Below, in pieces: positions 5,413 to 32,044 of a stretch of DNA of 33,433 nt. The notes beneath the pieces are model-generated. The model was not told where the DNA came from. It searched no databases and saw only the letters and a list, made by a program, of their open reading frames with translations. The DNA is from a virus (lineage: Duplodnaviria; Heunggongvirae; Uroviricota; Caudoviricetes): positions 1 to 33,433 of the IMG/VR virus record IMGVR_UViG_2917849834_000007. One strand, given 5' to 3'. Position numbers and translations under genes: made by a program. The number at the start of each line of letters is the position of its first letter. Position 1 is the stretch's first letter.

Positions 5413-6603
5413 TTAATTGCTGTTAACCGAGGTGACCAGATTTGCCAGGTATTTATCGGTAATACGCTGGCGCAGGGTCAGGTTTTCAAGAGGAGGCACC
5501 GGGGTATAGTCGTAGTCGATATACAGTTTTCCGGCCTTGAGGGTTTCCGCATCGTTGGATTCTTCGCTGAACCAGCAGGTCGCATCCACGATATAGCCGT
5601 TTGTTTTCAGCTCACGGAATTTGGCATTGATACCGTCAACGATGTCGCGAATCAGCGTTGCGGTGATGGGCTTGTCCACCGCCCACATGTGCGCCTCAGC
5701 CATCGTGTCGGCCAGCACCTGCGCGGTGCGGGTGTAGTTTTCAAAGAGGAACAGCGGGTCATCAGAGCAGGTACGGTTACCCCAGAATCGGAAACCGTCG
5801 CGGCGAATCAGCGTAGTGACGCCTGACTCGTTAAGCAGGTCAGCATCAGTGCCGGACTCCTGCAAATCCCAGAATACAGATGCGCTGATGCCGGTAACAC
5901 CGTTTACCCCGACGTTGGACAGCGTTTTATGCCAGCCCTGCTCCTGGTCGATTTTAGCGCGCAGACCCAGCGCACGGGCGGTGGCATACGCGGTGGCGGT
6001 GGTGCTGGTGACCGTATCCCATGCGAGGAAATCCGGCCAGATGACCATCAGCTCACGCTGGCTGAAATTCTGGCGGTAGGCTTTCACCTCGGAAATGGTT
6101 TTACAGCCCCATGCGCTGATATACCCGAAAGCGCGCAGCTTCTGACAGACAGATGCCAGTGCAACAGCCACCTCTTTGGTGTCCAGTCCCGGTACGCCGA
6201 GAATACGCGGTTTAACACCGGTTACCGACTCCGCCGCCAGCAGGGCTTTCAGTCCGGTGTACTGACCGTTTTCGTCGGTGGTGCCGATGATATTGGAAAC
6301 GGTCTGCGCGAGTTTCGTTTCTTCGTCTTCGCCGGTGCCGTCTTCCACGCGCACGACAACGGTGACTGGTTTTGACTGGTCAGCGATGGCCTGCAATGAC
6401 GCCGCCAGCGTGCCTTTTTTACCTGCCTTTGCAATTGCGCTCTGCACATTGGTAATCAGCACCGGTTTATTGAGGGGGAAGGTTTCCGCATCCGCATCGC
6501 TGGCCGTACAGACCATGCCGACAATGGCAGTGGATACGGTGGAAATGACGCGGGTGCCGTCGTTAATCTCCAGCACCTGCACGCCGTGATGATAATCACT
6601 CAT
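5413..6603 (-). CDS. FI: Contractile tail sheath protein FI, 396 aa
   Basis: ORF track; ATG at 6601-6603 with GGAG ribosome-binding site upstream; position and size as P2 gpFI. Confidence 0.9.
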   Translation of the reverse strand: MSDYHHGVQVLEINDGTRVISTVSTAIVGMVCTASDADAETFPLNKPVLITNVQSAIAKAGKKGTLAASLQAIADQSKPVTVVVRVEDGTGEDEETKLAQTVSNIIGTTDENGQYTGLKALLAAESVTGVKPRILGVPGLDTKEVAVALASVCQKLRAFGYISAWGCKTISEVKAYRQNFSQRELMVIWPDFLAWDTVTSTTATAYATARALGLRAKIDQEQGWHKTLSNVGVNGVTGISASVFWDLQESGTDADLLNESGVTTLIRRDGFRFWGNRTCSDDPLFLFENYTRTAQVLADTMAEAHMWAVDKPITATLIRDIVDGINAKFRELKTNGYIVDATCWFSEESNDAETLKAGKLYIDYDYTPVPPLENLTLRQRITDKYLANLVTSVNSN

Positions 6604-6969
6604 CCGTTTAACTCCGTGGTTAATGGGTGAGTGGTATTTTCAGTTGTGCAGGGCAAGAGACGCTATTTGACCTGGCTGGTCAGTGGATGAAACAACAGAT
6701 AAAGAAAAGAGTGGCAATCAGCCCACCTGTCTTTATCTGTACTTACTCAGTTTCCAACTGAAAATTTATATAGCCAGAACACTAGACTATGAATCACTCG
6801 CAGAGCGTTTTAACCAGTGTTACGTCCACAGGCTGAACTCACAGTGAAAAGCAAATAGGGGATATTTTCCTCGTTTAAATGTTCAGTCAGGTCATTGCAA
6901 AAATCATGCACCACTGGAGTTAACCAGAGCCAAGATATAATCTCTTAGCTCTATTTACATTTAGGTACA

Positions 6970-7674
6970 TTATTTTTGTTTTTTTGGTGGCCTTGAGTGT
7001 TTTTCCGGTAATTTTTCTACGATTTTAAAAATGTTATTATCTTTTAGTACTGTTCGCATTACAAAGCTTTCTATAACAGCCAAAAGCGATTTAAATTCAT
7101 CTTCGTTCGGTGCCCATGCCCTATGTGCAGCTGAGTTGCCAGCTTCAGTTACAATTTTAAGTTGCTCTTTTTCTTTTTCCCCGATAAAACCTTCATCTTT
7201 GAGAATATCAACTTTCTGGCTTAATGTATATCCAGGGTGAATATCCAGAACCTCAACGGTTCTGTCAAAAATAGTTCTAAGCCCAATTGCCGCCAAAATG
7301 AATGATTTATTTTGAAATGCGATATACATTTCGTTCATTATTACATATAGCTGATAATCTTTGCTTAGCACCTCACCAAACCAATCAGGTCTAATTTCTT
7401 CCTGCTCTTGAGTAGGATATATTGATATATGTTCGTTATATATCATAAAATCATGCCCCGACCCATCTCTTTCTATGTCGTAATCTTCACTGTGACGGGA
7501 CTTTATATATGTAAATACTCCATCACACCCCATACACTCTAATAAATTATATTCACTCTCAGCCCAAAAGTAGTCATCCCCATCATTTTTACTCCACTCT
7601 CTTTTTGTATGACCTATTGTGAGACAATTTTTTTCACCTTTACAGTATGGGCAAGGCGCTTTAATTTTTTCCAT
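6970..7674 (-). CDS. AT-rich cargo protein, 234 aa, N-terminal CxxC...CxxC zinc ribbon, at the Z/fun position
   Basis: ORF track; ATG at 7672-7674; CPYC (aa 7-10) and CMGC (aa 47-50); sits between G and FI, flanked by non-coding AT-rich DNA (6604-6969 and 7675-7933); composition clearly lower in GC than the flanking tail genes. Confidence 0.75.
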   Translation of the reverse strand: MEKIKAPCPYCKGEKNCLTIGHTKREWSKNDGDDYFWAESEYNLLECMGCDGVFTYIKSRHSEDYDIERDGSGHDFMIYNEHISIYPTQEQEEIRPDWFGEVLSKDYQLYVIMNEMYIAFQNKSFILAAIGLRTIFDRTVEVLDIHPGYTLSQKVDILKDEGFIGEKEKEQLKIVTEAGNSAAHRAWAPNEDEFKSLLAVIESFVMRTVLKDNNIFKIVEKLPEKHSRPPKKQK

Positions 7675-7933
7675 GATAATTATTTTCCGCTTGAGTTAAC
7701 ATCGATACAGCATACATGCAAATAGGTTACAAATGATAACTTGACTGTATGTTTTACCACAATAATGTTTATGTGAAGTAGTTACAAGCATCCCTTTTTC
7801 TTTTACCGTAGATTATTTGCATTTATTAACACTGAGTTGGGGCATAATTTCCGCATTTGGCACAGGGCAGACCGCCAGATTGGGTTCTACACTGTGCTAT
7901 AGATGCGTAACCCCACACCAGATCTAATACGAT

Positions 7934-8512
7934 TTATTGTGGCATTTCCGGCCATTCTATATCCGGAGCATTTTCCGGCTGAACGCGATTCAGTAGCACA
8001 CGGTATTTTTTCCAGTGTGTCAGGCTTAACTTTTCTTCCTCGGTAGCCATATCTAAATCGACAGCATCCTGCAGCGTGGCAATAATTTCACCTGCATATG
8101 CAATCAGCTCTTTCTTCTGAGAGTCAGCCGCTCTGACAAGCGCATCACGCTCTGCATTCTCATCATTCACCCACGCATTTCCGTCCCATTTCTGATAATC
8201 CCCATCCGGGGAAATGGCTGTCACGTCTGGAGGTAATGCGCCAAGTTCAGAAATATAAATGGCTGCTCCCGTTTTCGTTTCGTAGACAGTCTTTCCGCGA
8301 TGATCTTCCATCAACTCCCATTTCATTTCATCTGCATTGAAAACGGCTGCATAACCAGCCGGTATATCAGGCGGCGCAATATCTGTACTGTTTGCAGGCA
8401 GACCTGTATACGGTGGAATATACGCGTCACTTTCCCCAATAAATTCATTGGTTCCATCAAGTAAATTAAATACGCGGATAGTTTGTGCTTCTGCACTCAT
8501 TCTGAAAGCCAT
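7934..8512 (-). CDS. G: Tail fibre assembly chaperone, 192 aa
   Basis: ORF track; ATG at 8510-8512 overlaps the H stop (TAA 8512-8514); position downstream of H as in P2. Confidence 0.8.
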
Positions 8513-11136
8513 TATGCAAGCCTCACAATATAGTTAAATGCGATGTTTTTGACGGTGTTTTCTGTATTACCTGTAGCATTAACGGTAATAGAGTGCCCGT
8601 GTGAGCCAATAGCAACCGTGTGTGAATGTGCACCAATACCAACCGTATGATTATGTGCACCAATATCTACCGTGTGGGCATGATTCCCGGCAGCTCCTGA
8701 TGTGCCATTAAACGATGGGTTGTCAAAGCCTGTTTTACCGGTTTCACCATTAGTATTGGCATTCCCTCTGTAAATGGTATGTGTATGGTTACCAGTGGTA
8801 TTAGTGGTTTTTGTTCCGTAGTTAAACGTACTGACTGTCTTCGTCCCGTAATCAAACGAACTGGTTGTTTTCGTTCCCAAATCCGTATTTGACGCACTGG
8901 CACTGTGAGTATGCGATTTAATCCCGTCCTGTTCCTGTGACAATACGGCACGCCCACTGGCGGGTTTGCCCTTGATTGTCCAGCCGCGCATATCAGGAAT
9001 AACACCAGAAGGATAGGCTATAGCCAGTTTCGGATATGCTGCCTTATCAAACGTCTGCCCCTGCATGATTGCATAGCCTGCAGGTGGTGTATCTGATGGC
9101 CACGGCAGCGGAACACCAGGCGGAAACGCTTCAATATTTGCCGAGCCGTCAAATTTTACGCCGTTAATTGTCCTTGCCGTTTTCAGCTTTGTTGCTGTAG
9201 CCGCATTGCCGGACAGTTCACCAGAAAGGCCTGCACTGAATGTCTGTTTTGCCTCCCATGTCTGGGCTTCGTCGATAATTGGTAGCCGACGAATATTGAA
9301 GCTACGCTCCCCAGGATTGCCATATAAGCGGACTGTAAAAAAACGATAGTTGGTTTTGTTTGAAGTGCTGCGCCATACCTGCATTGAACGGGCGACACCT
9401 CCGCCTTCACTGGGGCCAACAGTGATATTTATCAGGTTAGTATCAATGACGCCCCATTCCATCCCATCGGGAATATTGGTCATATCTGAAAGCCTGACAG
9501 TTATCATGCTGCCCGGTATAAAGTCGTAGGTCTGCCAGTCCAGACTGGATAACCTGTCGGTAACACCGCCGACACCTAATTTAGTGAGTAATGATTTTGA
9601 GTTGTATACTTCCGCCCATTCCCCCCAGTCAGTTTCACCGCTGGCGCGGGTTCGCTGAAATGTCCGGTTTTTATAGGCATCCGTTGCTGAAACAGTCGTA
9701 TATGTCTGGATATACGATTCAATATCACAACGTTTTTTCACCTCAACTATTGAGCCAACAGCAAGATCTTTAGAGTCGGTGACAGGTGCATTTGTGGCCT
9801 GTTTCGTGACGCTATAAATACCAGGCTTTAAAAGGTCATCAAGATCCCCTGAATAAGTCCATCCCGTGGACTGATACCCAACAGCAATCCAGTCCTCCCA
9901 TTGTGGATTTTCTGCATCCCATGAGGCTGTCAGTCCGCGAATGTACATAGTCCCACTACGGGTGGTATAACGTTGCATCCTCCCATACAGACCGCCTTCA
10001 AAGACTTCCAGAATACCCTGTCCAAAACTCCCTTCCTCCGGGAAATGACGGTCAAATGAGGCTATTGATGTACTACTATTGCGCCATATTCCCAGGTGTT
10101 CCGCACCACCTAAAGAATTCAGGTCAATTGACGTGCTTAATGGGCGAGTCCCGCTTGTAATAACTCTCCATGCACTCCATACAGGACTGACAGGGTTCCA
10201 TTCTGCATCAAGCATCCGAATGTAAATATTACCGGTTCGGGTGGTGTAGCGTTGTGTGCAGTGAAAGCGACCAGCATTGAATACTTCCAGAACCCCATTG
10301 CCTTTATCTTCAGGGTAACCAGACTCTGGTTTTGCAGTGGATTGTGACGGACATGACCACGTTCCAAGATATTTTTCTTCTGGGCCATAGGAATCAAGAT
10401 TGTCAGTGGTTGGAATCATTCCATTGTGTTTCATAAACGTCAGGCTGGTAACGCCAATATTGTCCAGAAAAGCGCCCTTATCTGGAATATCGCCACCGTT
10501 CTGGTCTTTCTGCAGACGTTTCTCAGCATTGTCATAGGCTGCTTTTACTGCCTTTGGCGTTGCTGCCAGCTTTTCACTGGTGCTGTTTGTTGCACTGCTT
10601 AACTGAGTAAAACCTTTTTCTGTCAGCGTGGCGTCAGGATGGCGGCGGGACTGCTCATGCTCTGCGATTTTGTCATCGACGTAATCCTGCGTCGCCATCA
10701 CTGTGCTGGCATCAATACTCAGCTCAACAGACGCCACGTTACTGACAATAATGACCATGCGGCAGGTCTGCGCACGCCCGGAGCCTTCAGCCAGTTCAGG
10801 CTTATAGCTTTCTGCCATGTTAGCGACCGCAATCAGTGTTCCGGCATCATCATACAGACCAAGTTCACGCATCCAGAAGCCGCCCACTTCTGGCGGTACA
10901 ACCAGTTCAGCCACGATATAGTTTTTATTCTTGTTATCCACGCTGACTTTATTCAGAGCGTGACGCCAGACCTCATGCACCAGTTTCGTCTGACCGGCAT
11001 CCGGCACCGGCAATTTGCCATTACCGTCACCCACGGCCATTGCAGACAGGTTTACTTTTTTCCCGCCGGGGACAGTGGCGGCTGCCAGCTTTGCGGCTCC
11101 GGCAGTAGTGATAACGGTTTTAAATTTCGTGCTCAT
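8512..11136 (-). CDS. H: Tail fibre protein, 874 aa
   Basis: ORF track; N-terminus resembles P2 gpH as recalled; C-terminal His-x-His repeats ([24 protein letters not shown]). Confidence 0.85.
8600..8681 (-). repeat. Three imperfect ~27-bp tandem coding repeats inside H (HxH motif repeats)
   Basis: Read directly: ccaatagcaaccgtgtgtgaatg / tgcaccaataccaaccgtatgattatg / tgcaccaatatctaccgtgtgggcatg. Confidence 0.6.
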
Positions 11137-20002: not shown

Positions 20003-21775
20003 ATGACCATCACCACAGACACCACTCTTTTACACGACCCGCGTCGTCAGGCGGCGCTGCTGTACTGGCAGGGATTTTCCGTGCCGCAGATTGCCGCCAT
20101 GTTGCAGATGAAACGCCCGACAGTGCAGAGCTGGAAACAGCGCGACGGCTGGGACAACGTTGCCCCCATCAGCCGTGTCGAAATGAGCCTGGAAGCGCGG
20201 CTGACCCAGCTCATCATCAAACCGCAGAAAACCGGCGGTGACTTCAAGGAAATTGACCTGCTGGGACGCCAGATTGAACGACTGGCACGGGTAAATCGCT
20301 ACAGCCAGACCGGCAACGAGGCAGACCTTAATCCGAACGTCGCTAACCGCAACAAAGGCGGGCGGCGCAAACCGAAAAAGAATTTTTTCAGTGACGAGGC
20401 CATCGAAAAGCTGGAGCAGATTTTCTTTGAGCAGTCTTTCGAATATCAGTTGCACTGGTATCGTGCCGGGCTTGAGCACCGCATCCGCGATATCCTGAAA
20501 TCCCGCCAGATTGGCGCGACGTTTTATTTTTCCCGCGAGGCGCTGCTGCGCGCCCTGAAAACCGGTCATAACCAGATTTTTCTGTCGGCCAGTAAAACGC
20601 AGGCGTATGTGTTCCGTGAATACATCATCGCCTTTGCCCGTCTGGTTGACGTTGACCTGACCGGTGACCCGATTGTCCTGGGCAATAACGGCGCAAAACT
20701 GATTTTTCTCGGCACCAACTCCAACACCGCACAGAGCCATAACGGCGACCTGTACGTCGATGAGATTTTCTGGATCCCGAATTTTCAGGTACTGCGTAAA
20801 GTGGCATCAGGTATGGCCTCACAGAGTCACCTGCGCTCGACCTATTTCTCCACCCCGTCCACGCTGGCGCACGACGCCTACCCGTTCTGGTCGGGTGAAC
20901 TGTTTAACCGGGGACGCGCCAGCGCCGCCGAACGCGTGGAAATCGACGTCAGTCATAACGCCCTTGCCGGTGGGCTTCTCTGTGCGGACGGCCAGTGGCG
21001 GCAGATTGTCACCATTGAGGACGCCCTGAAAGGTGGCTGCACGCTGTTCGACATTGAGCAGCTCAAACGCGAAAACAGCGCCGACGATTTTAAAAACCTG
21101 TTCATGTGTGAATTTGTTGACGACAAGGCGTCGGTGTTCCCGTTCGAGGAGCTGCAACGCTGCATGGTCGACACGCTGGAAGAATGGGAAGACTACGCGC
21201 CGTTTGCCGCAAATCCGTTCGGCTCCCGCCCGGTATGGATTGGTTACGACCCGTCACACCGTGGCGACAGCGCCGGATGCGTGGTGCTGGCACCGCCGGT
21301 GGTGGCCGGTGGCAAATTCAGGATACTTGAGCGTCACCAGTGGAAAGGCATGGACTTTGCCACCCAGGCTGAATCCATCCGCAAACTCACCGAAAAATAT
21401 AACGTCGAATACATCGGTATTGATGCCACCGGCCTCGGTGTCGGCGTGTTCCAGCTCGTGCGCTCGTTCTATCCCGCCGCGCGCGATATCCGCTACACAC
21501 CGGAAATGAAAACCGCAATGGTGCTCAAGGCAAAAGACGTTATCCGTCGTGGCTGTCTGGAATATGACGTCAGCGCCACCGACATCACCAGCTCGTTTAT
21601 GGCTATCCGCAAGACCATGACCAGCAGCGGACGCAGCGCCACCTATGAGGCCAGCCGCAGCGAGGAAGCCAGCCACGCCGACCTCGCCTGGGCGACCATG
21701 CACGCCCTGTTAAATGAGCCACTCACCGCCGGTATCAGCACCCCGCTGACATCCACCATTCTGGAGTTTTACTGA
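20003..21775 (+). CDS. P: Terminase large (ATPase) subunit P, 590 aa
   Basis: ATG at 20003 inside ORF 19973..21775 gives MTITTDTTLLHDPRRQAALLYWQGF...; stop TGA overlaps the Q start (TGATG at 21773-21777). Confidence 0.9.
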   Translation: MTITTDTTLLHDPRRQAALLYWQGFSVPQIAAMLQMKRPTVQSWKQRDGWDNVAPISRVEMSLEARLTQLIIKPQKTGGDFKEIDLLGRQIERLARVNRYSQTGNEADLNPNVANRNKGGRRKPKKNFFSDEAIEKLEQIFFEQSFEYQLHWYRAGLEHRIRDILKSRQIGATFYFSREALLRALKTGHNQIFLSASKTQAYVFREYIIAFARLVDVDLTGDPIVLGNNGAKLIFLGTNSNTAQSHNGDLYVDEIFWIPNFQVLRKVASGMASQSHLRSTYFSTPSTLAHDAYPFWSGELFNRGRASAAERVEIDVSHNALAGGLLCADGQWRQIVTIEDALKGGCTLFDIEQLKRENSADDFKNLFMCEFVDDKASVFPFEELQRCMVDTLEEWEDYAPFAANPFGSRPVWIGYDPSHRGDSAGCVVLAPPVVAGGKFRILERHQWKGMDFATQAESIRKLTEKYNVEYIGIDATGLGVGVFQLVRSFYPAARDIRYTPEMKTAMVLKAKDVIRRGCLEYDVSATDITSSFMAIRKTMTSSGRSATYEASRSEEASHADLAWATMHALLNEPLTAGISTPLTSTILEFY

Positions 21776-22809
21776 TGAGCAAGAAAAAAGGGAAAACACC
21801 GCAACCTGCGGCAAAAACAATGACCGCCAGCGCCCCGAAAATGGAGGCATTCACCTTCGGTGAGCCGGTACCGGTACTCGACCGGCGTGACATTCTGGAT
21901 TACGTCGAATGCATCAGTAACGGCAGATGGTATGAGCCACCGGTCAGCTTTACCGGTCTGGCAAAAAGCCTGCGTGCTGCCGTACATCACAGCTCACCGA
22001 TTTACGTTAAACGCAATATTCTGGCCTCGACATTTATCCCGCATCCGTGGCTTTCCCAGCAGGATTTCAGCCGCTTTGTGCTGGATTTTCTGGTGTTCGG
22101 TAATGCGTTTCTGGAAAAGCGTTACAGCACCACCGGTAAGGTCATCAGACTGGAAACCTCACCGGCAAAATATACCCGCCGTGGTGTGGAAGAGGATGTT
22201 TACTGGTGGGTGCCGTCCTTCAACGAGCCGACACCTTTCACGCCCGGCTCCGTGTTTCACCTGCTGGAGCCGGATATTAATCAGGAGCTGTACGGCCTGC
22301 CGGAATATCTCAGCGCCCTTAACTCTGCCTGGCTGAATGAGTCGGCCACGCTGTTCCGCCGCAAGTATTACGAAAACGGCGCACATGCCGGATACATCAT
22401 GTACGTCACCGATGCCGTGCAGGATCGCAACGATATCGAAATGCTTCGCGAAAACATGGTTAAGTCGAAAGGCCGCAATAACTTTAAAAACCTGTTTCTC
22501 TATGCCCCACAGGGGAAAGCCGACGGCATTAAAATTATCCCGCTCAGTGAAGTGGCAACGAAAGACGATTTTTTTAATATCAAAAAAGCCAGCGCCGCAG
22601 ACCTGCTGGACGCGCACCGCATCCCCTTTCAGTTGATGGGTGGCAAGCCGGAGAACGTCGGGTCACTGGGAGATATTGAGAAAGTGGCAAAGGTCTTTGT
22701 CCGCAATGAGCTTATCCCGCTACAGGACAGGATTCGGGAAATAAACGGCTGGCTCGGTCAGGAGGTCATCCGCTTTAAAAACTACTCACTGGACACTGAC
22801 AACGGCTGA
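21775..22809 (+). CDS. Q: Portal protein Q, 344 aa
   Basis: ORF track; last gene before cos, as in P2. Confidence 0.9.
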   Translation: MSKKKGKTPQPAAKTMTASAPKMEAFTFGEPVPVLDRRDILDYVECISNGRWYEPPVSFTGLAKSLRAAVHHSSPIYVKRNILASTFIPHPWLSQQDFSRFVLDFLVFGNAFLEKRYSTTGKVIRLETSPAKYTRRGVEEDVYWWVPSFNEPTPFTPGSVFHLLEPDINQELYGLPEYLSALNSAWLNESATLFRRKYYENGAHAGYIMYVTDAVQDRNDIEMLRENMVKSKGRNNFKNLFLYAPQGKADGIKIIPLSEVATKDDFFNIKKASAADLLDAHRIPFQLMGGKPENVGSLGDIEKVAKVFVRNELIPLQDRIREINGWLGQEVIRFKNYSLDTDNG

Positions 22810-23120: not shown

Positions 23121-25142
23121 TTATAATTTCCTCAACAATTTCCCATTGTTCTTATCAAAGGATATCATTGTATAGTCATACCCTTCTAATGCCTCTTTTA
23201 AGACATTTTCATCTTCTGATGTAGCAAAAATGATCTGCCCTTGTCCTTTTGTTGTTTCTGCAGCATCTTTAAGTAACTCGGCAAAACTTACTTTATTTGC
23301 TTCTTGTTGACGAGGCTCATCAAACACAATCAATCCAGGGTGATTTGTTTGAAATTTAGAACCAACAACAAATAAACTTATTAAATAACCCCAAATGATT
23401 CTTATTCCATCACTAGCTGATGTGTCAAAACCTATATCATATCCTTCCCTAGTAGGTAAGTAATTATCTTCTGATATTGACACAAGTTTAGAATCAAAAC
23501 TTGTAAAATTATATTTTTCTAATCGTGCAACGACTTCTTTATTAAGAAATTTTAACTTATCGGCATCATTACGCGACAAGAAATTATCTGGCAATCCTTT
23601 TCTTTTCGCGATAAGCTTTTTATATCTACGGTGTAATGAATCCAACTCCAGTCTAATGTCCAATATACTTTTAATGCCATCGTTAATGGCATTAATTTTA
23701 TTCTCAATGTTTATTTTACGTCTCAGAAACTCCTCCTGAACAACCATTGAGGGATATTTTGACTCCCTTAATGCATTAATATCAACTCTAATCTTGGCTA
23801 TTTCCCCCTCTAAATCACTCCTCTCAACATCTTTAAGCTTTAATTGCTTTTCACTATCCGACAGAACAAACTCAAATGCTTTTACTTGCTCTTTAATAAA
23901 GTTCAAACTATCTTCATATGTCATCAGATTTTCTTGCGATGAAAAACTTAGCAAATTATCATTATAACTTGCACCACAAGTCGGACAAATATTTGACATT
24001 AAATCTGTTGACTTATACGCATCCGAAGATGATATTTTCTTTAAATCTTCATACTTCCTTTTATCTTCCAACAGATTATACAATCTGTTTTTGGTCGCCT
24101 GAATTTGATATTGAATATAACTTCTATGCTCACAAATCTCTTTAATCTTTAATTCCAGAGAGTTAATTTCATCATTTTTTTGACCTAATAACTTAACCAC
24201 TGATAATTGTAAAGTTTGTTCTTCTTGCTCACCAAGAGTGTCAAACTTAATTTCTTGCAACTCTTTTTCCAGTTCATTACGAACATCAACAATAGATCTA
24301 ACGACACTACCATTTTTAATAATCAAATCTATCTTATAATGATCAAATTTTGCCACTGGTTGTTCAGGAATCCCTGTGACAACTGACGACAATTTAGAAG
24401 CAATAACTTCTGCATTGTGTTTAATTAACTTCCAATCATGATAAATAATATCAAGCTCATTTCTTAACGAACTACGCAATAAAATATTATCATTAACATC
24501 AAGAGACATTAAAAATTCTAGAGCTCTTTTCTTTGGCTCTTTAATTCCAAATTGTGTTGGTACAGTCGCCATAATTGACGACCATCCTTTTTTTTGCTCA
24601 ACATACCATGCAGGGAAAAGTACGGATGGATAAAGAATAGTGTCCTTCCCATTATGGTTTGGAACATTTGGCAAACTCCAACCTATAAAATCAGCTAACC
24701 ACTTATAGAAACCACGTTCCCTTTCAGTATCGCCCTCTCTATGTAAAAAATAAGTACCACTCTTACTTTTTACATTATTCTTCTCATCTATATAAATAAC
24801 ATTATTATTATCGTGACCGATAATATTCCTTTTCAAAGATGCTTCTATTCCCTTATGATTCTTTATTTTTAGCAAAACATAAGATGATATTACACTAACT
24901 TCAACATTATCTTTTGTCGTTAGTGCTCTAGTCAAAGATGGAGGGAATGGGATTTTTCCAGAACCGACACCTAATGCCTTTTCCATCCCAAGTGCATATG
25001 CAATCCCATTCATGCAAGTTGATTTACCATGAGAATTCTCAACTCTTAATAAAAACAAGCCATTTGAAAAAGGTATACTAACACCATAACGCCCATCCGA
25101 AGTATTTGCTACTAACTCCAATGAAATAATTTCCAACGACAT
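23121..25142 (-). CDS. Rad50/SbcC-like coiled-coil ABC ATPase with CPxC zinc hook, 673 aa; third gene of cargo operon
   Basis: Hand-checked motifs: Walker A ENSHGKST near 25013-25036; central coiled coil with CPTCG near 23971-23988; Walker B GLIVFDEP near 23310-23340; signature-like SASDG. ATG at 25140-25142 with AGGTGGG ribosome-binding site. Low GC. Confidence 0.8.
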   Translation of the reverse strand: MSLEIISLELVANTSDGRYGVSIPFSNGLFLLRVENSHGKSTCMNGIAYALGMEKALGVGSGKIPFPPSLTRALTTKDNVEVSVISSYVLLKIKNHKGIEASLKRNIIGHDNNNVIYIDEKNNVKSKSGTYFLHREGDTERERGFYKWLADFIGWSLPNVPNHNGKDTILYPSVLFPAWYVEQKKGWSSIMATVPTQFGIKEPKKRALEFLMSLDVNDNILLRSSLRNELDIIYHDWKLIKHNAEVIASKLSSVVTGIPEQPVAKFDHYKIDLIIKNGSVVRSIVDVRNELEKELQEIKFDTLGEQEEQTLQLSVVKLLGQKNDEINSLELKIKEICEHRSYIQYQIQATKNRLYNLLEDKRKYEDLKKISSSDAYKSTDLMSNICPTCGASYNDNLLSFSSQENLMTYEDSLNFIKEQVKAFEFVLSDSEKQLKLKDVERSDLEGEIAKIRVDINALRESKYPSMVVQEEFLRRKINIENKINAINDGIKSILDIRLELDSLHRRYKKLIAKRKGLPDNFLSRNDADKLKFLNKEVVARLEKYNFTSFDSKLVSISEDNYLPTREGYDIGFDTSASDGIRIIWGYLISLFVVGSKFQTNHPGLIVFDEPRQQEANKVSFAELLKDAAETTKGQGQIIFATSEDENVLKEALEGYDYTMISFDKNNGKLLRKL

Positions 25143-25143
25143 A

Positions 25144-25620
25144 TTAACCCACCTGAAATATTTTATTAATGTTAGTTTCGGACAGTCCAGCCTTATGTTT
25201 ATTTAGCACCAACCTTTCTTCTTTGAACACATCAAGAGAAAGCAATTTCTCAGCGACCTTAAGCCCCTTTTCATTTATTTTGAACGCTCGTTCATTTCTC
25301 AAAATAAAATCCTCTGCTAATAATAGCTGTATTGCTCTATCTAAAGTTGGATCCAATCTTACTTCAGGCTTTAAACCTTCTTTGTTTAAAAGCCAGAATT
25401 CAAACATTGCTTCATTATTCTCTGACTTTAACATCCAATTAATTAAATGAAGTTTTTTTAAAGAACAGCAACCAGCTCTCCCTGTGACAAGGAATATTAT
25501 CAGCAACAAACTGCAACGCCACAATGGTCTCATATCACATGGCAAATGTTCAGGTCGTTTATTAAACGTAAACGGCCTTCCTATTATTTCATCTATCGTT
25601 ATATGCATTTGCTTTTCCAT
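25144..25620 (-). CDS. Small protein of unknown function, 158 aa; possible middle component
   Basis: ORF track; ATG at 25618-25620; stop TAA 25144-25146 is 1 nt from the ATPase start; start is 1 nt from the stop of the upstream gene. Low GC. Confidence 0.7.
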   Translation of the reverse strand: MEKQMHITIDEIIGRPFTFNKRPEHLPCDMRPLWRCSLLLIIFLVTGRAGCCSLKKLHLINWMLKSENNEAMFEFWLLNKEGLKPEVRLDPTLDRAIQLLLAEDFILRNERAFKINEKGLKVAEKLLSLDVFKEERLVLNKHKAGLSETNINKIFQVG

Positions 25621-25621
25621 T

Positions 25622-26542
25622 CTAAAAATCTAAAGGGCATCTTATAAGCCAATCAGAAATAACTCCCCATGTTATCTTATCCAAGTCAGCCTGTTTAAGC
25701 GTACTAACTTCCTCTTCAATACATTTCTTTAACAAAGCGATTTCATCTTTCATTATATCTGATGGTTTCGCATCTGATGAAGTAAGAAGAAAGAGACCTA
25801 CCAAATTACGTTCTCTATGTTGAACACAGTTATAGATAATTTCATAGATATCAACCCAGTCTCTCTTCAAAGCATCCAGCAAGTTTTGATAATCAAGATA
25901 TTTTTGTATTAAAAACTCTCTATATAAACCCTGCCTAGATACATCATCATTTATCTTAGGTAATTTTAAATTTAGCTTATCTAAAAAAGATGTATTTTCA
26001 CTAATAAAGTTAGCAGCATTCTCAGCCGTCGCATCATTTATATTAAAGCTTAATTGATAGTTATTTTTGCGAAGAAAGAACGCTTCTTCTATATAATTTC
26101 GATCTGTTTGCACTACTATTTGAAAATCATCAGCAACGTAAGAAATCCCTAACTCTCTTACTTTTAATGATTTTTTTGTGCAATATTGACTTAATTTCGC
26201 CGATTTATTATATGGTGTAGCTAATATCCAGCGGCTAATTTTTAATGTGCCAAAAAGCTCCTCTAATTCTTTAATGTTATCCTGAGAAAACTTTTTTATA
26301 TCAGTATAAATCTTTTTTTGTTGCGCTTTATAAAGCTTATCAATATCACTCGACTGCTCAGGCAAGTAACACTGAAAAACATGACCACTCAGAGTGTAAC
26401 ACTCCAGCCCAAAGTCGCCTCCATGCTCATCTGGCAAGTCACAACAGTTAGCAGGCTTATAATGTAGCCAAACAATATTTTTGAAATATGATTCCCACGC
26501 TTTTGGGTCACTATAAGGATCGTTATACATCGCCAAGCCCAT
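25622..26542 (-). CDS. Protein of unknown function, 306 aa; candidate effector, first gene of cargo operon
   Basis: ORF track; ATG at 26540-26542; N-terminal Cys/His/acidic cluster (NCCDLPDEHGGDFGLECY) that I cannot assign to a fold. Low GC. Confidence 0.7.
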   Translation of the reverse strand: MGLAMYNDPYSDPKAWESYFKNIVWLHYKPANCCDLPDEHGGDFGLECYTLSGHVFQCYLPEQSSDIDKLYKAQQKKIYTDIKKFSQDNIKELEELFGTLKISRWILATPYNKSAKLSQYCTKKSLKVRELGISYVADDFQIVVQTDRNYIEEAFFLRKNNYQLSFNINDATAENAANFISENTSFLDKLNLKLPKINDDVSRQGLYREFLIQKYLDYQNLLDALKRDWVDIYEIIYNCVQHRERNLVGLFLLTSSDAKPSDIMKDEIALLKKCIEEEVSTLKQADLDKITWGVISDWLIRCPLDF

Positions 26543-29938: not shown

Positions 29939-30001
29939 AACTTTCTCCAGGCAAAAAGAAGCCCCGCACGATTAAGTGCGTTAAAAACTCTGGTTAATTA
30001 C

Positions 30002-30508
30002 TTAATGCAGATATTGCTCTGGTTTTACCGACGTCAGAATTGTCGGTGCATACTCAAACAGACTGAATAATTCACGTAATGCACGGAATAAAGCATCACG
30101 CCAGTAACATGACTCTTCATTAATTCGCCAGTATGGCTGGTTGAATTCTTTTTCAGTCAATCCGGCATGCATAAATAAAGTACGGCGCTGACTGACTGTT
30201 AAAAAACTAATATATGCATACTCACTTGCACCGACCTGACGACGTTTTGAGAATGCCCCACGCAATTCATCAATTGCACATACCAGTCGTTCACGTTCGA
30301 CGTCGTTCATTTCTTCAAAACGCATCGTTGCGTGACGCTGTTTTAACTGCGCATGAAAGCAAACTGTTAGCCGTTCGCGCTCCATCATCTGATTATAATA
30401 ATCACATGTATCCTGCCAGCGAGGAACGGCAAGATGCTTACCAATTATCCGGCGCATAGCTGCTGGCTGTTTTTCAACGAGATTGAGCGTCATCACTGTC
30501 ATTTCCAT
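30002..30508 (-). CDS. B: Replication protein B (helicase loader), about 166-168 aa
   Basis: ORF track; sequence matches P2 gpB as recalled (MTVMTLNLVEKQPAAMRRIIGKH...); true start may be the third codon (30502). Confidence 0.85.
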   Translation of the reverse strand: MEMTVMTLNLVEKQPAAMRRIIGKHLAVPRWQDTCDYYNQMMERERLTVCFHAQLKQRHATMRFEEMNDVERERLVCAIDELRGAFSKRRQVGASEYAYISFLTVSQRRTLFMHAGLTEKEFNQPYWRINEESCYWRDALFRALRELFSLFEYAPTILTSVKPEQYLH

Positions 30509-30714
30509 ACCCTCCGGCTTTTCAGAAAGGTCAGAGCCTTTTTTAACGGACTCTGTTTTTTGGTGCGGATAATGATTCCCTTACGCCCCTTACCGTGGGT
30601 GATGGTGAAGTCAATCGCCCTTGGGCTTTCGTTACGCAATAACTGAGCAATACAACGAGGTTCCGGCATAACTCCTCCTGAAACAGAGCCGGTTTTTAGC
30701 CATGTCCGGCACAT
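30499..30714 (-). CDS. Small early-operon protein, P2 orf78-like, 71 aa
   Basis: The ORF track entry 30499..30747 begins at a TTG; the first ATG is at 30712-30714 (MCRTWLKTG...). Start choice is uncertain. Confidence 0.5.
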   Translation of the reverse strand: MCRTWLKTGSVSGGVMPEPRCIAQLLRNESPRAIDFTITHGKGRKGIIIRTKKQSPLKKALTFLKSRRVWK

Positions 30715-30768
30715 GGTCTTGTGGTAAGATCGAATCGCCAAAAACAACCAACCACAAAAGGTGTAAAA

Positions 30769-30975
30769 ATGGACAAAAAAACTGTTACTGTATTTCCAGA
30801 CAAAATCACTATCGATGGTATTGTCAGTGAGGGTAAGATGAGACTACTCGCACACCTTCATACCGACTTAAACCTAAAAAGCGATAATGTTCTTGCAATT
30901 AGTATTCAACTCGAGCAATTAAAAAATCTTCATGCTACTATCGGCGAATACTTAGAGCTGAATAAAGAAAAATAA
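30769..30975 (+). CDS. Small protein of unknown function, 68 aa; AT-rich, antisense to the early operon
   Basis: ATG at 30769 preceded by AAGGTG; the ORF track entry begins at an upstream GTG (30721). Stop TAA 30973-30975 lies 2 nt from the stop of the convergent 198-aa gene. Confidence 0.55.
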   Translation: MDKKTVTVFPDKITIDGIVSEGKMRLLAHLHTDLNLKSDNVLAISIQLEQLKNLHATIGEYLELNKEK

Positions 30976-30977
30976 TT

Positions 30978-31574
30978 TCAATCTACTTTGCGCCATGAGT
31001 ATTTTTGCATTCCTGGCGCATATTTTTCTACAGCATTAATAATACTCAGCGCATCAAATTCGCTATAACCTTTTTCGTCACCCGATAACTTTGATACTCC
31101 GTAGTACACATGACCGATAAACCTGTCATTTTCATAACAAGCTCTACAGTATAGAGTCACATAGTTGCGTAATGGGGTTAGCTCGCAACCAATAATAGAA
31201 AGATCACCAAAACGCAAAATCTCAAATTTACTTGATTTGCTTCTTTTTGTTTTAGTTGGGGCATGTTGATTCTGGCTGATTAACGCAAATGACTCTTGTA
31301 AATTATTTATAATCTCATTACGTTCATCTCTTTTGTTATTTTCCAGCCTGACACATCCACATTTAATTAAATGCGTCAAAGTCTCAATTTCTGCAGCTCT
31401 TACAGGTAAAGCCAGAAAATTAACTTCTTCTTCTAATTTTTTCGCTTCAATTTCTATGTCATCAACTATGGCTGATACGTTAGATTGCCCTTCAATCGAC
31501 AAAAGTCTCGTGCGCAGCTCGATGATCAACGATTGAATTTTTTTAGCTGCCGTGTTTCCTACTATAGTGTTCAT
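30978..31574 (-). CDS. Protein of unknown function, 198 aa; AT-rich cargo between cox and orf78
   Basis: ORF track; ATG at 31572-31574; no motif I recognise. Confidence 0.7.
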   Translation of the reverse strand: MNTIVGNTAAKKIQSLIIELRTRLLSIEGQSNVSAIVDDIEIEAKKLEEEVNFLALPVRAAEIETLTHLIKCGCVRLENNKRDERNEIINNLQESFALISQNQHAPTKTKRSKSSKFEILRFGDLSIIGCELTPLRNYVTLYCRACYENDRFIGHVYYGVSKLSGDEKGYSEFDALSIINAVEKYAPGMQKYSWRKVD

Positions 31575-31583
31575 AACATGCCC

Positions 31584-31940
31584 TCACACCATACGCCCTA
31601 ATTTCGACTTGCTATAACTAATGCGGTTCTTCCAGTCATGCCATTCTGTCGGAGCTTCATCGACTAGTTGAGCTGCATATTTGTCCCACTCACGACGATT
31701 AATCCATAACTCAGCATTCCCCCCTGGCTTCAGTGGGTCTGTCATATAGAACGCAGGGAGCTTGCCTGCTCTCGCCATTTCTGCTACAGCGCGTGGTGTC
31801 TTACCTATGTAAAGAGCAAAACCCTCTTTCGACAGCAAATCTGAAGGCACAGCAGCCAATTTAACTGAATGACGTTTTGCTTTTGTAAGAACTGAGACTT
31901 CTTGTCTTGTCTCGTCAGAAATTTCAGATCCGACATTCAT
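31584..31940 (-). CDS. cox: Cox-like excisionase / early transcriptional regulator, 118 aa
   Basis: ORF track; ATG at 31938-31940; the segment FALYIGKTPRAVAEMARAGKLPAFYMTDP resembles the Cox DNA-binding region; first gene of the early operon, divergent from C. Confidence 0.7.
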   Translation of the reverse strand: MNVGSEISDETRQEVSVLTKAKRHSVKLAAVPSDLLSKEGFALYIGKTPRAVAEMARAGKLPAFYMTDPLKPGGNAELWINRREWDKYAAQLVDEAPTEWHDWKNRISYSKSKLGRMV

Positions 31941-32044
31941 TTTGCTATTCTCCTAATTGGCTCCACAAACTAAAGCTAGTTAGAGTTGGCTAGAGTTAGG
32001 TGTGGAATATCACAACGGATTAAAAATAAGAGATCTGATTCATT
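31941..32044. promoter_or_regulatory. Immunity switch region between cox and C (expected early and repressor promoters plus operator)
   Basis: Position between divergent cox and C; direct repeat tagagtt at 31981-31987 and 31991-31997. Confidence 0.55.

What the first reader, a model, noticed from the sequence alone, without database searches (positions are those of the whole stretch)
6604..7933. Second cargo locus at the Z/fun position: isolated 234-aa zinc-ribbon protein
P2 carries the accessory gene Z/fun between G and FI. Here the slot holds one AT-rich gene (6970-7674) with 366 bp and 259 bp of non-coding AT-rich DNA on either side, which looks like an independently transcribed moron. The protein has an N-terminal CPYC...CMGC zinc ribbon and a C-terminal helical region containing NSAAHRAW, which is reminiscent of the DUF4145-type helical module seen in defence-associated proteins. 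That last assignment is from memory and weak. I cannot tell from memory whether this is a homologue of P2 Fun itself.
Basis: partly seen in the sequence, partly recalled or inferred. Interest (0 to 1): 0.7.

Follow-up and report, generated by a model that had tools for sequence, protein, structure and literature searches.

The report
Prophage zinc-finger HEPN defence candidate
A P2-like prophage carries, in the slot where phage P2 has its T5-exclusion gene fun, a single self-contained gene for a zinc-binding sensor-like domain fused to a HEPN (DUF4145) RNase-type domain; this is most likely a one-protein anti-phage 'suicide' defence of the same general kind as the recently solved RAZR system, but from a different, uncatalogued family.

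Summary
ORF 6970-7674 (-) encodes 234 aa between tail genes G and FI, at 33-38% GC against about 57% in the backbone. It is unrelated to P2 Fun(Z).

The family is large: 572 clusters at 50% identity. C8, C11, C47, R133 and H184 are invariant. The gene is under purifying selection (dN/dS about 0.16).

The gene moves as a 0.93-kb single-gene cassette between mobile-element cargo sites, and its neighbours are often restriction or other defence genes. The same prophage carries Lamassu at P2 hotspot 1.

The closest known system is RAZR/PD-T7-4, a Zn-finger plus DUF4145 abortive-infection RNase. Membership fails:
- The PADLOC PD-T7-4 model does not match.
- There is no HMMER match to the RAZR chain in the PDB.
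- The zinc domain differs.
- RAZR's catalytic Arg position holds T/V/I/A.

Verdict: a probable single-protein HEPN defence, and a new variant of a known kind. No phenotype has been tested. Interest is moderate.

The parts
6970..7674 (-). Single cargo gene: 234-aa Cys4 zinc-finger + DUF4145/HEPN protein
   Evidence: ORF. Pfam DUF4145 at E=1.4e-13. Full-length phrog_1305 match at E=9e-33. dN/dS 0.15-0.17 against the 96% and 84% identical copies. 1,683 representative relatives at E<=1e-3, nearly all full-length.
7411..7674 (-). N-terminal Cys4 all-beta domain (residues 1-88): C8/C11 and C47/C50 clasp, seven strands; putative trigger sensor
7045..7356 (-). C-terminal HEPN domain (residues 107-210; Pfam DUF4145 match on residues 115-201 = nt 7072-7332). 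R133 codon 7276-7278, H184 codon 7123-7125, R185 codon 7120-7122
7675..7803 (-). Upstream segment that travels with the gene (presumed own promoter and RBS region)
   Evidence: It is co-conserved with the gene between the P2-slot copy and a lambdoid-prophage copy; similarity ends at about 7803. No strong sigma-70 consensus. No stable leader structure (z=+0.97). The small ORF 7696-7791 is not conserved.
6873..6969 (-). Downstream segment that travels with the gene (3' end of the cassette)
   Evidence: Conserved with the lambdoid-context copy to about 6873. There is only a sub-threshold Rfam hit (23 bits against a gathering score of 70).
6785..7850 (.). Whole cargo insert at the Z/fun slot (differs from P2, P2-EC46 and others)
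   Evidence: Alignments to P2, P2-EC46 and the E. coli O121 prophage show backbone homology ending at about 6784 and resuming at about 7851. The same insert, 95.7% identical, is at the same slot in E. coli O121 strain 201805972.
6604..6784 (-). Conserved P2 backbone between the cargo and FI. It contains a GC-rich hairpin plus T-run (6700-6727, minus strand) and, by homology with P2, the region of the late promoter P_F
   Evidence: 86-89% identity to many P2-like phages. Terminator-like site at 6727-6710. The hairpin is conserved in 4 phages, but none of its pairs shows a compensatory double change. The P_F assignment rests on established P2 knowledge and was not tested here.
7851..7933 (.). 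Conserved P2 backbone downstream of G; includes the G-side arm (about 7851-7881) of the inverted repeat that brackets the variable Z region in P2-like phages
   Evidence: Alignment. The P2-EC46 record annotates left and right inverted repeats. A 30-nt, 83% complementary pair was confirmed there. In the window the G-side arm is intact and the FI-side arm (about 6790-6820) is degenerate.
5413..6603 (-). Tail sheath gene FI (flank)
   Evidence: Pfam Phage_sheath_1, Phage_sheath_1C and Gp18_domIII_N.
7934..8512 (-). Tail-fibre assembly gene G (flank)
   Evidence: Pfam Caudo_TAP at E=1e-40.

Best explanation
The gene is a prophage-borne, single-protein anti-phage defence of the abortive-infection type. 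Its C-terminal DUF4145-class HEPN domain is a latent RNase. Its N-terminal Cys4 beta-domain is the sensor that recognises a component of an infecting phage. Recognition probably changes how HEPN domains pair or oligomerise, so that an active site built from invariant H184 and R133, with R185, is assembled. RNA is then cut, translation stops, and the infected lysogen fails to produce phage.

Shown here: the domain identities, the conserved residues, selection on the gene, its cassette mobility, and its location in cargo sites of mobile elements, often beside defence genes.

Inferred, not shown: RNase activity, the sensor role of the N-domain, activation by oligomerisation, and the defence phenotype itself.

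For: 2. Architecture. Zn finger plus DUF4145 in one protein of about 220-235 aa is what RAZR is, and what the validated DS-38 is described as.

3. Catalytic-type conservation. R133 and H184 are invariant, and R185, K154, W187, D137 and E202 are at >=94% in 114 sequences averaging about 30% identity.

4. Sensor-like behaviour. The N-domain is more variable than the HEPN domain in 106 of 113 comparisons, as reported for the RAZR zinc-finger domain, which sets specificity.

5. Real, selected gene. dN/dS is 0.15-0.17.

6. Location.
- It sits in the P2 fun slot, a described defence hotspot.
- The same prophage has Lamassu in hotspot 1.
- An 84% identical copy sits beside hok/gef and an anti-phage dGTPase in another prophage.
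- Homologues occur on plasmids and ICEs beside integrases, a TIR protein, TA pairs and AbiTii.
- Among 150 nearest neighbours of 41 non-redundant loci there are type I, IIG and IV restriction enzymes, PbeA, mad2, a CBASS cyclase and PDC-S02/S49.

7. Single gene. There is no conserved partner ORF or RNA in the cassette.
Against: - No phenotype, RNase assay or trigger is known for this family.
- It is not recognised by any PADLOC 2.0 model: 0 of 114 members match PD-T7-4.
- The arginine that RAZR needs (R146, eight residues before the His) has no counterpart. Position 176 is T/V/I/A and never R/K, and the canonical -5 position is Gly. Catalysis would therefore need R133 or R185 instead, which is unproven. 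The H184 = H154 equivalence was inferred from Pfam model coordinates, not from a direct alignment.
- PHROGs labels the family 'DNA binding protein'.
- No protein-level match exists in 50,697 deposited phage genomes, so phage carriage is seen only in prophages.
- The neighbour-enrichment count had no matched control.
- No clear promoter was found.
Confidence: 0.6

Rival explanations
1. It is a true RAZR (PD-T7-4) family member that works exactly as RAZR does: it polymerises around about 170-angstrom rings of phage portal or Erf-like proteins into a 24-mer that activates the RNase.
For: It has the same two-domain order and similar size. It is a single gene on mobile elements. The zinc-finger half is more variable than the HEPN half.
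Against: - The PADLOC PD-T7-4 model matches none of 114 members.
- The PDB copy holds 9Y6U/9Y9C (Gp77 probe E=1e-142), yet the RAZR chain is not matched at E<=10 by the protein or by two family profiles.
- The N-domain is a seven-strand, 88-residue sheet with no RPB9-like ribbon match, against RAZR's zinc finger of about 65 residues.
- Residues equivalent to R146 are never basic.
- A portal-ring sensor inside a P2-like prophage would also have to ignore the prophage's own portal.
Confidence: 0.1
2. It is a conflict gene aimed at other mobile elements (for example conjugative plasmids, as for the DUF4145/HEPN Ishtar proteins) or an addiction or stabilisation toxin for its carrier, rather than an anti-phage system.
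For: Ishtar proteins with DUF4145 HEPN domains block RP4. 68 plasmids carry homologues, 25 of them conjugative. Neighbours include TA pairs and colicin.
Against: Ishtar has its HEPN domain at the N-terminus with a different C-domain. No antitoxin-like partner is conserved in the cassette. The P2 fun slot and the lambdoid site beside dGTPase are phage-defence contexts.
Confidence: 0.12
3. It is a non-catalytic nucleic-acid-binding or regulatory protein: a HEPN domain that has lost RNase activity, as in MtlR-type HEPN regulators.
Confidence: 0.1
4. It serves the phage's own lytic cycle, for example host RNA shut-off, and is read through from the late tail operon rather than expressed in the lysogen.
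For: It has the same orientation as G and FI. No terminator was detected between G and the gene, and no clear own promoter was found. In Pseudomonas P2-like clusters it again sits co-oriented between late genes S and V.
Against: The identical cassette works outside tail operons: in a lambdoid early-region context, on plasmids and on ICEs. It is absent from all 68 P2-like phage records that share the flanks, so it is dispensable for the phage.
Confidence: 0.06
5. It is a diverged homologue of P2 Fun(Z).
For: Same genomic slot only.
Against: BLASTP shows no similarity (best E=0.27 over 14 residues). The lengths differ (299 against 234 aa).
Confidence: 0.01

Closest known systems
RAZR (ring-activated zinc-finger RNase; formerly PD-T7-4), E. 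coli UMB1727, PDB 9Y6U/9Y9C (Zhang et al., Nature 2026, PMC13017515; Vassallo et al. 2022, PMC9519451)
   Same: Both are single proteins of about 220-235 aa with an N-terminal Cys4 zinc-binding domain followed by a C-terminal DUF4145-class HEPN domain. Both have a conserved catalytic-type His. Both are carried on mobile elements. In both, the zinc-domain half is the more variable half.
   Different: - There is no detectable sequence relationship: the PADLOC PD-T7-4 model matches 0 of 114 members, and HMMER finds no match to the RAZR chain in the PDB at E<=10.
- The DUF4145 domain starts at residue 115 rather than 87, because the N-domain carries about 30 extra residues of beta-hairpins.
- The N-domain does not match RPB9/TFIIS-type ribbons.
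- RAZR's essential R146 (Rx7H) corresponds to T/V/I/A here. This family instead keeps R133 (invariant) and R185 (+1 to the His).
- RAZR often overlaps an integrase gene, whereas this gene sits in prophage cargo slots.
DS-38 (DefensePredictor preprint, bioRxiv 10.1101/2025.01.08.631726)
   Same: It is described as a validated one-protein E. coli defence with HEPN and zinc-finger domains, in which only the HEPN domain superposes on PD-T7-4. That is the pattern found here.
   Different: Its sequence or accession is not in the held text, so identity with this family could be neither confirmed nor excluded.
P2 Fun(Z), the T5-exclusion gene of phage P2
   Same: It occupies the same G-FI slot, bounded by the same conserved backbone and inverted-repeat arms. 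It is a lysogenic-conversion or defence cargo gene.
   Different: It is an unrelated protein (299 aa, no sequence similarity).
Other DUF4145/HEPN defence proteins: PD-T7-3, BxaP (BREX-associated), Ishtar1
   Same: They use a DUF4145-class HEPN domain as the presumed effector in validated anti-phage or anti-plasmid systems.
   Different: In those proteins the HEPN domain is N-terminal and fused to other, larger C-terminal domains. None has the Cys4 beta-domain.
HEPN toxins of HEPN/MNT toxin-antitoxin systems (e.g. 7AE2/7AE8, 5YEP)
   Different: Those are controlled by a cognate MNT antitoxin through AMPylation. Here no partner gene is conserved, and control is presumably through the fused zinc domain.

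Membership tests
Pfam DUF4145 / HEPN superfamily | Significant match to PF13643 above the gathering score | tested here: met
   51.1 bits against a cutoff of 23.1, E=1.4e-13, residues 115-201 covering model positions 2-87 of 88. The model also matched all ten longer relatives tested.
Pfam DUF4145 / HEPN superfamily | Four-helix up-down HEPN fold | tested here: met
Pfam DUF4145 / HEPN superfamily | Rx4-6H (in DUF4145: Rx7H) catalytic motif | tested here: not met
   His184 is invariant, but positions -4 to -8 are N/S, G, A, D/E and T/V/I/A, never R or K in 114 sequences. Anantharaman et al. 2013 note the motif is kept in only about 80% of DUF4145. R185 (+1) and R133 are conserved instead.
RAZR / PD-T7-4 | Sequence homology to RAZR (family HMM or the solved chain) | tested here: not met
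   PADLOC PD-T7-4 is not hit by the protein or by any of 114 relatives. phmmer and hmmsearch of the PDB at E<=10 miss the RAZR chain, although 9Y6U/9Y9C are in that copy.
RAZR / PD-T7-4 | N-terminal Cys4 zinc-finger domain followed by a C-terminal DUF4145 HEPN domain in one polypeptide | tested here: met
   C8, C11, C47 and C50 are conserved and DUF4145 covers residues 115-201. In PD-T7-4 the zinc ribbon is at residues 9-59 and DUF4145 at 87-175.
RAZR / PD-T7-4 | Zinc-finger domain of the small RPB9-like zinc-ribbon type | tested here: not met
RAZR / PD-T7-4 | Catalytic pair R146 / H154 | tested here: inconclusive
   The His is conserved (H184). The position eight residues upstream is never basic. 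The equivalence was inferred through Pfam model coordinates, because no RAZR sequence could be obtained for a direct alignment.
RAZR / PD-T7-4 | Activation by assembling as a 24-mer around phage portal or Erf-like rings; non-specific ssRNA cleavage; abortive infection | not testable with these tools
   This needs phage challenge, escape mutants, co-expression toxicity tests and cryo-EM or mass photometry.
DS-38 (DefensePredictor) | Sequence identity or homology to the validated DS-38 protein | not testable with these tools
   Only a verbal description is available. No supplement is held.
P2 Fun(Z) | Sequence similarity to the P2 protein encoded between G and FI | tested here: not met
   Best BLASTP E=0.27 over 14 residues.
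P2 'hotspot 2' (Z/fun) cargo | Variable insert between conserved G and FI backbone, bracketed by the conserved border sequences | tested here: met
   Backbone homology to P2, P2-EC46 and the O121 prophage stops at about 6784 and resumes at about 7851. The G-side inverted-repeat arm is present. The hotspot is described in PMC9519451.

The most novel reading that the evidence does not exclude
This is the first look at a large, uncatalogued family of one-protein immune sensors, with at least 572 clusters at 50% identity spanning Proteobacteria to Cyanobacteria and Acidobacteriota. In it, a previously undescribed Cys4 beta-sheet domain replaces RAZR's small zinc ribbon. The HEPN active site is rewired, with the motif G-[NS]-A-A-A-H-R plus a remote invariant Arg instead of Rx7H. 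On this reading it senses a different class of phage trigger from RAZR and is activated by a different geometry.
Probability: 0.3. Interest if true: 0.6.

Novelty: new variant of a known kind. Interest (0 to 1): 0.45.

Why it matters
If the gene defends, it adds a widespread zinc-domain plus HEPN family to the catalogue of single-protein abortive-infection systems. The family is currently invisible to PADLOC 2.0 and is annotated only as 'DUF4145 domain-containing protein'.

Its sensor domain has no structural relative, and its HEPN motif lacks the arginine that RAZR requires. Comparing it with RAZR would therefore show which features of the RAZR mechanism are general to Zn-finger-HEPN immunity and which are specific to one lineage. 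Those features are ring templating, higher-order oligomerisation and the make-up of the active site.

The finding also gives a clean natural example of one 0.93-kb defence cassette moving between the P2 fun slot, a lambdoid prophage island, plasmids and, in Pseudomonas, another junction of P2-like tail clusters.

Practically, a prophage with both Lamassu and this gene is relevant to predicting phage-therapy host range.

Tried and rejected
1. P2 Fun homology was rejected.

2. Direct comparison with RAZR failed in several ways.
- Single-sequence and two profile searches of the PDB gave only chance hits. I then showed with the Gp77 probe that 9Y6U/9Y9C are present, so the negative is real at the HMMER level.
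- A pseudo-consensus DUF4145 probe written from memory hit only designed helical repeats and is discarded.
- No RAZR or DS-38 sequence could be obtained: supplements are not held for either paper, and Vassallo's tables give only the accession RRL46918.1.

3. PADLOC and NCBIfam gave no family. The CasR hit (E=0.014) and a single PDC-S19 hit (7e-5, 1 of 114 members) are treated as noise.

4. tblastn against deposited phage genomes gave no match.

5. The search for a partner found nothing. Small ORFs in the cassette are not conserved, no Rfam family reaches threshold, and the leader is not structured. A two-component or RNA-antitoxin reading is therefore not supported.

6. My first impression that the backbone hairpin at 6710-6727 shows compensatory changes was not borne out: 0 pairs have double changes in 4 sequences.

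7. The sigma-70 scan found no promoter-like site upstream of the gene on its strand, so the promoter remains unlocated.

8. The N-terminal extensions of longer relatives have no recognisable domain.
Full report

Yes. The only substantial ORF between the tail sheath gene FI (5413-6603, minus) and the tail-fibre assembly gene G (7934-8512, minus) is 6970-7674 on the minus strand, encoding 234 aa. The identities of the flanking genes were confirmed with Pfam. The gaps are 366 and 259 bp.

GC falls from 0.53-0.60 in the tail genes to 0.33-0.38 across the insert. The protein begins MEKIKAPCPYCKGEKNC and contains CMGC at residues 47-50 and NSAAHRAW at 180-187.

**2. Where does the cargo begin and end?**

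The finding's flanks are not all cargo. The first 181 nt (6604-6784) are 86-89% identical to P2, Wphi, fiAA91-ss, L-413C and dozens of other P2-like phages, and occur in about 1,500 of 5,426 complete E. coli genomes. Alignment with P2, P2-EC46 and an E. coli O121 prophage places the break at about 6784. On the G side, homology resumes at about 7851. The insert is therefore about 6785-7850.

The conserved FI-side block holds a GC-rich hairpin followed by a T-run on the coding strand (6727-6700). The hairpin is conserved in four phages, although none of its pairs shows a compensatory double change. By homology with P2, this block is where the late promoter P_F lies. That assignment is established P2 knowledge and was not tested here.

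The GenBank record for P2-EC46 annotates inverted repeats bracketing the 'Z-region'. I confirmed a 30-nt, 83% complementary pair there. In the window, the G-side arm (about 7851-7881) is intact and the FI-side arm is degenerate.

**3. Is it P2 Fun?**

No. P2 has a 299-aa ORF in the same slot. BLASTP against it gives nothing better than E=0.27 over 14 residues.

**4. What is the protein?**

DUF4145 is a branch of the HEPN superfamily and is recorded as fused to zinc ribbons, among other domains (Anantharaman et al. 2013, PMC3710099).

*Other libraries.* PHROGs has the whole protein as phrog_1305 (E=9e-33, labelled 'DNA binding protein'). NCBIfam has nothing. PADLOC has nothing credible.

**5. 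The family**

An exhaustive HMMER search of 1.84 billion representatives finds 1,683 relatives at E<=1e-3 and 572 at E<=1e-10. Almost all are about 210-260 aa and align end to end.

In an alignment of 114 diverse members averaging about 30% identity to the window protein:
- C8, C11, C47, R133 and H184 are invariant.
- C50, K154 and W187 are at 0.99; R185 is at 0.96; E202 is at 0.97; D137 is at 0.94.

The signature around the His is [DE]-A-G-[NS]-A-A-A-H-R-[GA]-W.

The zinc-domain half is less conserved than the HEPN half. Mean identity to the window protein is 28.7% against 40.1%, and HEPN exceeds the zinc-domain half in 106 of 113 comparisons.

Codon-level comparison with the 96% and 84% identical copies gives dN/dS of 0.15-0.17, so this is a functional gene under selection.

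A scan of one genome per species found the family in 137 species. These include Gamma-, Beta- and Alphaproteobacteria, with examples in Bacteroidota, Cyanobacteria, Acidobacteriota and Chloroflexota. Only one peptide pattern was used, so this is a lower bound.

**6. Mobility and neighbourhood**

- The same insert, 95.7% identical over the whole 1.33 kb, occupies the same G-FI slot in a P2-like prophage of E. coli O121.
- An 84% identical copy of only 6873-7803 occurs in about a dozen E. coli genomes. There it lies in a different prophage region among DUF1133, DUF1364, DUF1367 and DUF977 genes, which I read as lambdoid-type. It sits beside hok/gef, an MBL-fold hydrolase and an annotated anti-phage dGTPase.
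- The unit that moves is therefore a 0.93-kb cassette: the gene, about 130 nt upstream and about 100 nt downstream.
- The cassette contains no conserved second ORF, no Rfam family and no structured leader.
- More distant homologues sit alone on Yersinia pestis pMT plasmids between IS elements, and on Enterobacter and Yersinia conjugative plasmids next to tyrosine recombinases, a TIR-domain protein and a GNAT/DUF1778 TA pair.
- Others lie at the end of a lambdoid prophage, in a plasmid island with colicin, AbiTii, YafQ/RelB, PLD and Macro genes, and on an ICE-like element.

I also scanned the two nearest ORFs on each side of 41 non-redundant loci, 150 ORFs in all. The defence families hit were type I restriction enzymes (3 proteins), type IV methyl-directed enzymes and PbeA (3 members each; these may be the same three proteins), mad2 (2), type IIG enzymes (2), a CBASS cyclase, PDC-S02, PDC-S49, a type I specificity subunit, a type II methyltransferase and DrmMI. 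I ran no matched control, so this is suggestive only.

Pfam on the same set shows transposases, TraG and P2-type tail genes. In four Pseudomonas species the gene lies, co-oriented, between tail genes R/S and V/W of P2-like clusters.

No protein-level match exists in 50,697 deposited phage genomes.

**7. The rest of the prophage**

The other AT-rich island of the window (23.1-26.5 kb) lies between the portal gene (21775-22809; my assignment from P2 gene order, not scanned) and the replication gene, which is P2 hotspot 1. It encodes a complete Lamassu system: LmuA at 1e-30, LmuC at 2.5e-23 and LmuB at 1e-98. The prophage therefore carries a recognised defence system at one hotspot and this gene at the other. 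The second hotspot, at fun, was described by Vassallo et al. 2022 (PMC9519451).

**8. How it most likely works**

The closest mechanistic precedent is RAZR, formerly PD-T7-4 (Zhang et al., Nature 2026, PMC13017515).

RAZR is a protein of about 219 aa with an N-terminal Cys4 zinc finger and a C-terminal DUF4145/HEPN domain. It is harmless alone. During infection its zinc-finger domains bind rings formed by phage portal or Erf-like proteins. It polymerises into a 24-mer around them and cleaves RNA non-specifically, causing abortive infection. Its zinc-finger domain is the most variable part and sets specificity. R146 and H154 are essential.

By analogy, I propose that the window protein is a latent HEPN RNase whose Cys4 beta-domain senses a phage component and whose activation involves re-pairing or oligomerisation of HEPN domains.

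What is shown here is the architecture, the conserved Arg/His/Cys residues, the variable sensor half, selection, cassette mobility, and the cargo and defence context. What is inferred is RNase activity, the sensor role, the activation mode and the phenotype. I put 0.6 on 'single-protein HEPN anti-phage defence'. I put only about 0.1 on 'works exactly like RAZR'.

**9. Is it a RAZR family member?**

No, on the tests I could run.

- The PADLOC PD-T7-4 model matches neither the protein nor any of 114 relatives.
- The PDB sequence copy contains the RAZR-Gp77 entries: SECphi27 Gp77 retrieves 9Y6U/9Y9C at E=1e-142. Even so, phmmer with the protein and hmmsearch with two family profiles return only chance hits at E<=10.
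- In PD-T7-4, HHpred places the zinc ribbon at residues 9-59 and DUF4145 at 87-175 (Vassallo Table S3). Here the cysteines span 8-50 and DUF4145 starts at 115, with extra beta-hairpins in between.
- RAZR's zinc finger is reported as RPB9-like. This N-domain matches no zinc ribbon.
- Mapping through Pfam coordinates, H184 corresponds to H154. The position corresponding to R146 is T/V/I/A in all 114 sequences, and the canonical -5 position is Gly (97%).

The family therefore belongs to the minority of DUF4145 domains that lack the Rx(n)H arginine. If it is catalytic, it must use R133 and/or R185. This last point rests on an indirect alignment, because I could not obtain a RAZR sequence.

**10. 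A possible prior description**

The DefensePredictor preprint (bioRxiv 10.1101/2025.01.08.631726) reports DS-38, a validated E. coli one-protein system with HEPN and zinc-finger domains whose zinc finger does not superpose on that of PD-T7-4. That description fits this family. DS-38's sequence is not in the held text, so the two may or may not be the same. If they are the same, defence activity is already demonstrated and only the mechanism is open.

**11. Verdict**

The gene is best described as a new variant of a known kind: a zinc-domain plus DUF4145/HEPN single-protein defence candidate from a large uncatalogued family, sitting in a known P2 defence hotspot.

A specialist would not be surprised by the category. 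The unrecognised sensor fold, the rewired HEPN motif and the breadth of the family would be of interest. Interest is 0.45.

Noticed in passing
window 23121-26542 (minus strand): The larger AT-rich island (GC 0.32-0.34) lies between the gene I take to be the portal gene (assigned from P2 gene order, not scanned) and replication gene A, which is P2 hotspot 1. It encodes a complete Lamassu system: LmuA 25622-26542 (E=1e-30), LmuC 25144-25620 (E=2.5e-23) and LmuB 23121-25142 (E=1e-98) by PADLOC. Pfam finds nothing in any of the three.
   Followed up: partly
window about 7851-7881 and about 6790-6820; L002 215-244 and 3301-3330: The variable Z/fun region of P2-like phages is bracketed by a short inverted repeat (30 nt, 83% complementary in P2-EC46, annotated in AJ512680). 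The window keeps the G-side arm, but the FI-side arm is degenerate. Whether these arms act as recombination sites or terminators for cargo exchange is unknown.
   Followed up: partly
L016, L020, L022, L024 (Pseudomonas spp.), match at 8001-8700: In Pseudomonas the homologue sits co-oriented between P2-type tail genes R/S and V/W. This is a different inter-operon junction of P2-like tail clusters (prophage or R-tailocin-like) from the G-FI slot used in E. coli.
   Followed up: partly
L005 1921-2643 (Yersinia pestis pMT plasmid, NC_017266.1): A 42% identical family member is conserved on Y. pestis pMT1-type plasmids of about 100 kb (dozens of records). It lies next to IS256- and IS110-family transposases and a few kb from the phospholipase D (murine toxin) gene.
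   Followed up: no
P0010-P0012; E. coli genomes such as NZ_CP100947.1 (H26) and NZ_CP100876.1 (H33): In some E. coli genomes, homologues about 83% identical to the window protein are annotated as proteins of only 158-167 aa that lack the zinc domain (P0010 is seen on 122 contigs). They could be N-terminally truncated or frameshifted derivatives, or start-site miscalls. I did not check which.
   Followed up: no
L004 4446-4601 and 9288-10649: The non-P2 prophage site that holds the 84% identical cassette is itself a small conflict island: hok/gef, an IS421 copy, an MBL-fold hydrolase, a hypothetical protein and an annotated anti-phage dGTPase.
   Followed up: no
window 30000-32000: A third region of lower GC (0.40-0.43) holds two minus-strand ORFs (30002-30508, 168 aa; 30978-31574, 198 aa) that match no PADLOC model. 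They may belong to the immunity or integration end of the prophage or be further cargo.
   Followed up: no
window 7971-8050 (minus): A sub-threshold Rfam hit to IS009 (24 bits against a gathering score of 117, E=0.003) lies inside tail-fibre assembly gene G. It is almost certainly chance.
   Followed up: no
window 8250-11000: The distal part of the tail-fibre gene H and gene G have lower GC (0.42-0.49) than the rest of the tail module (about 0.57). This is consistent with the usual mosaic exchange of host-range determinants next to the cargo slot.
   Followed up: no
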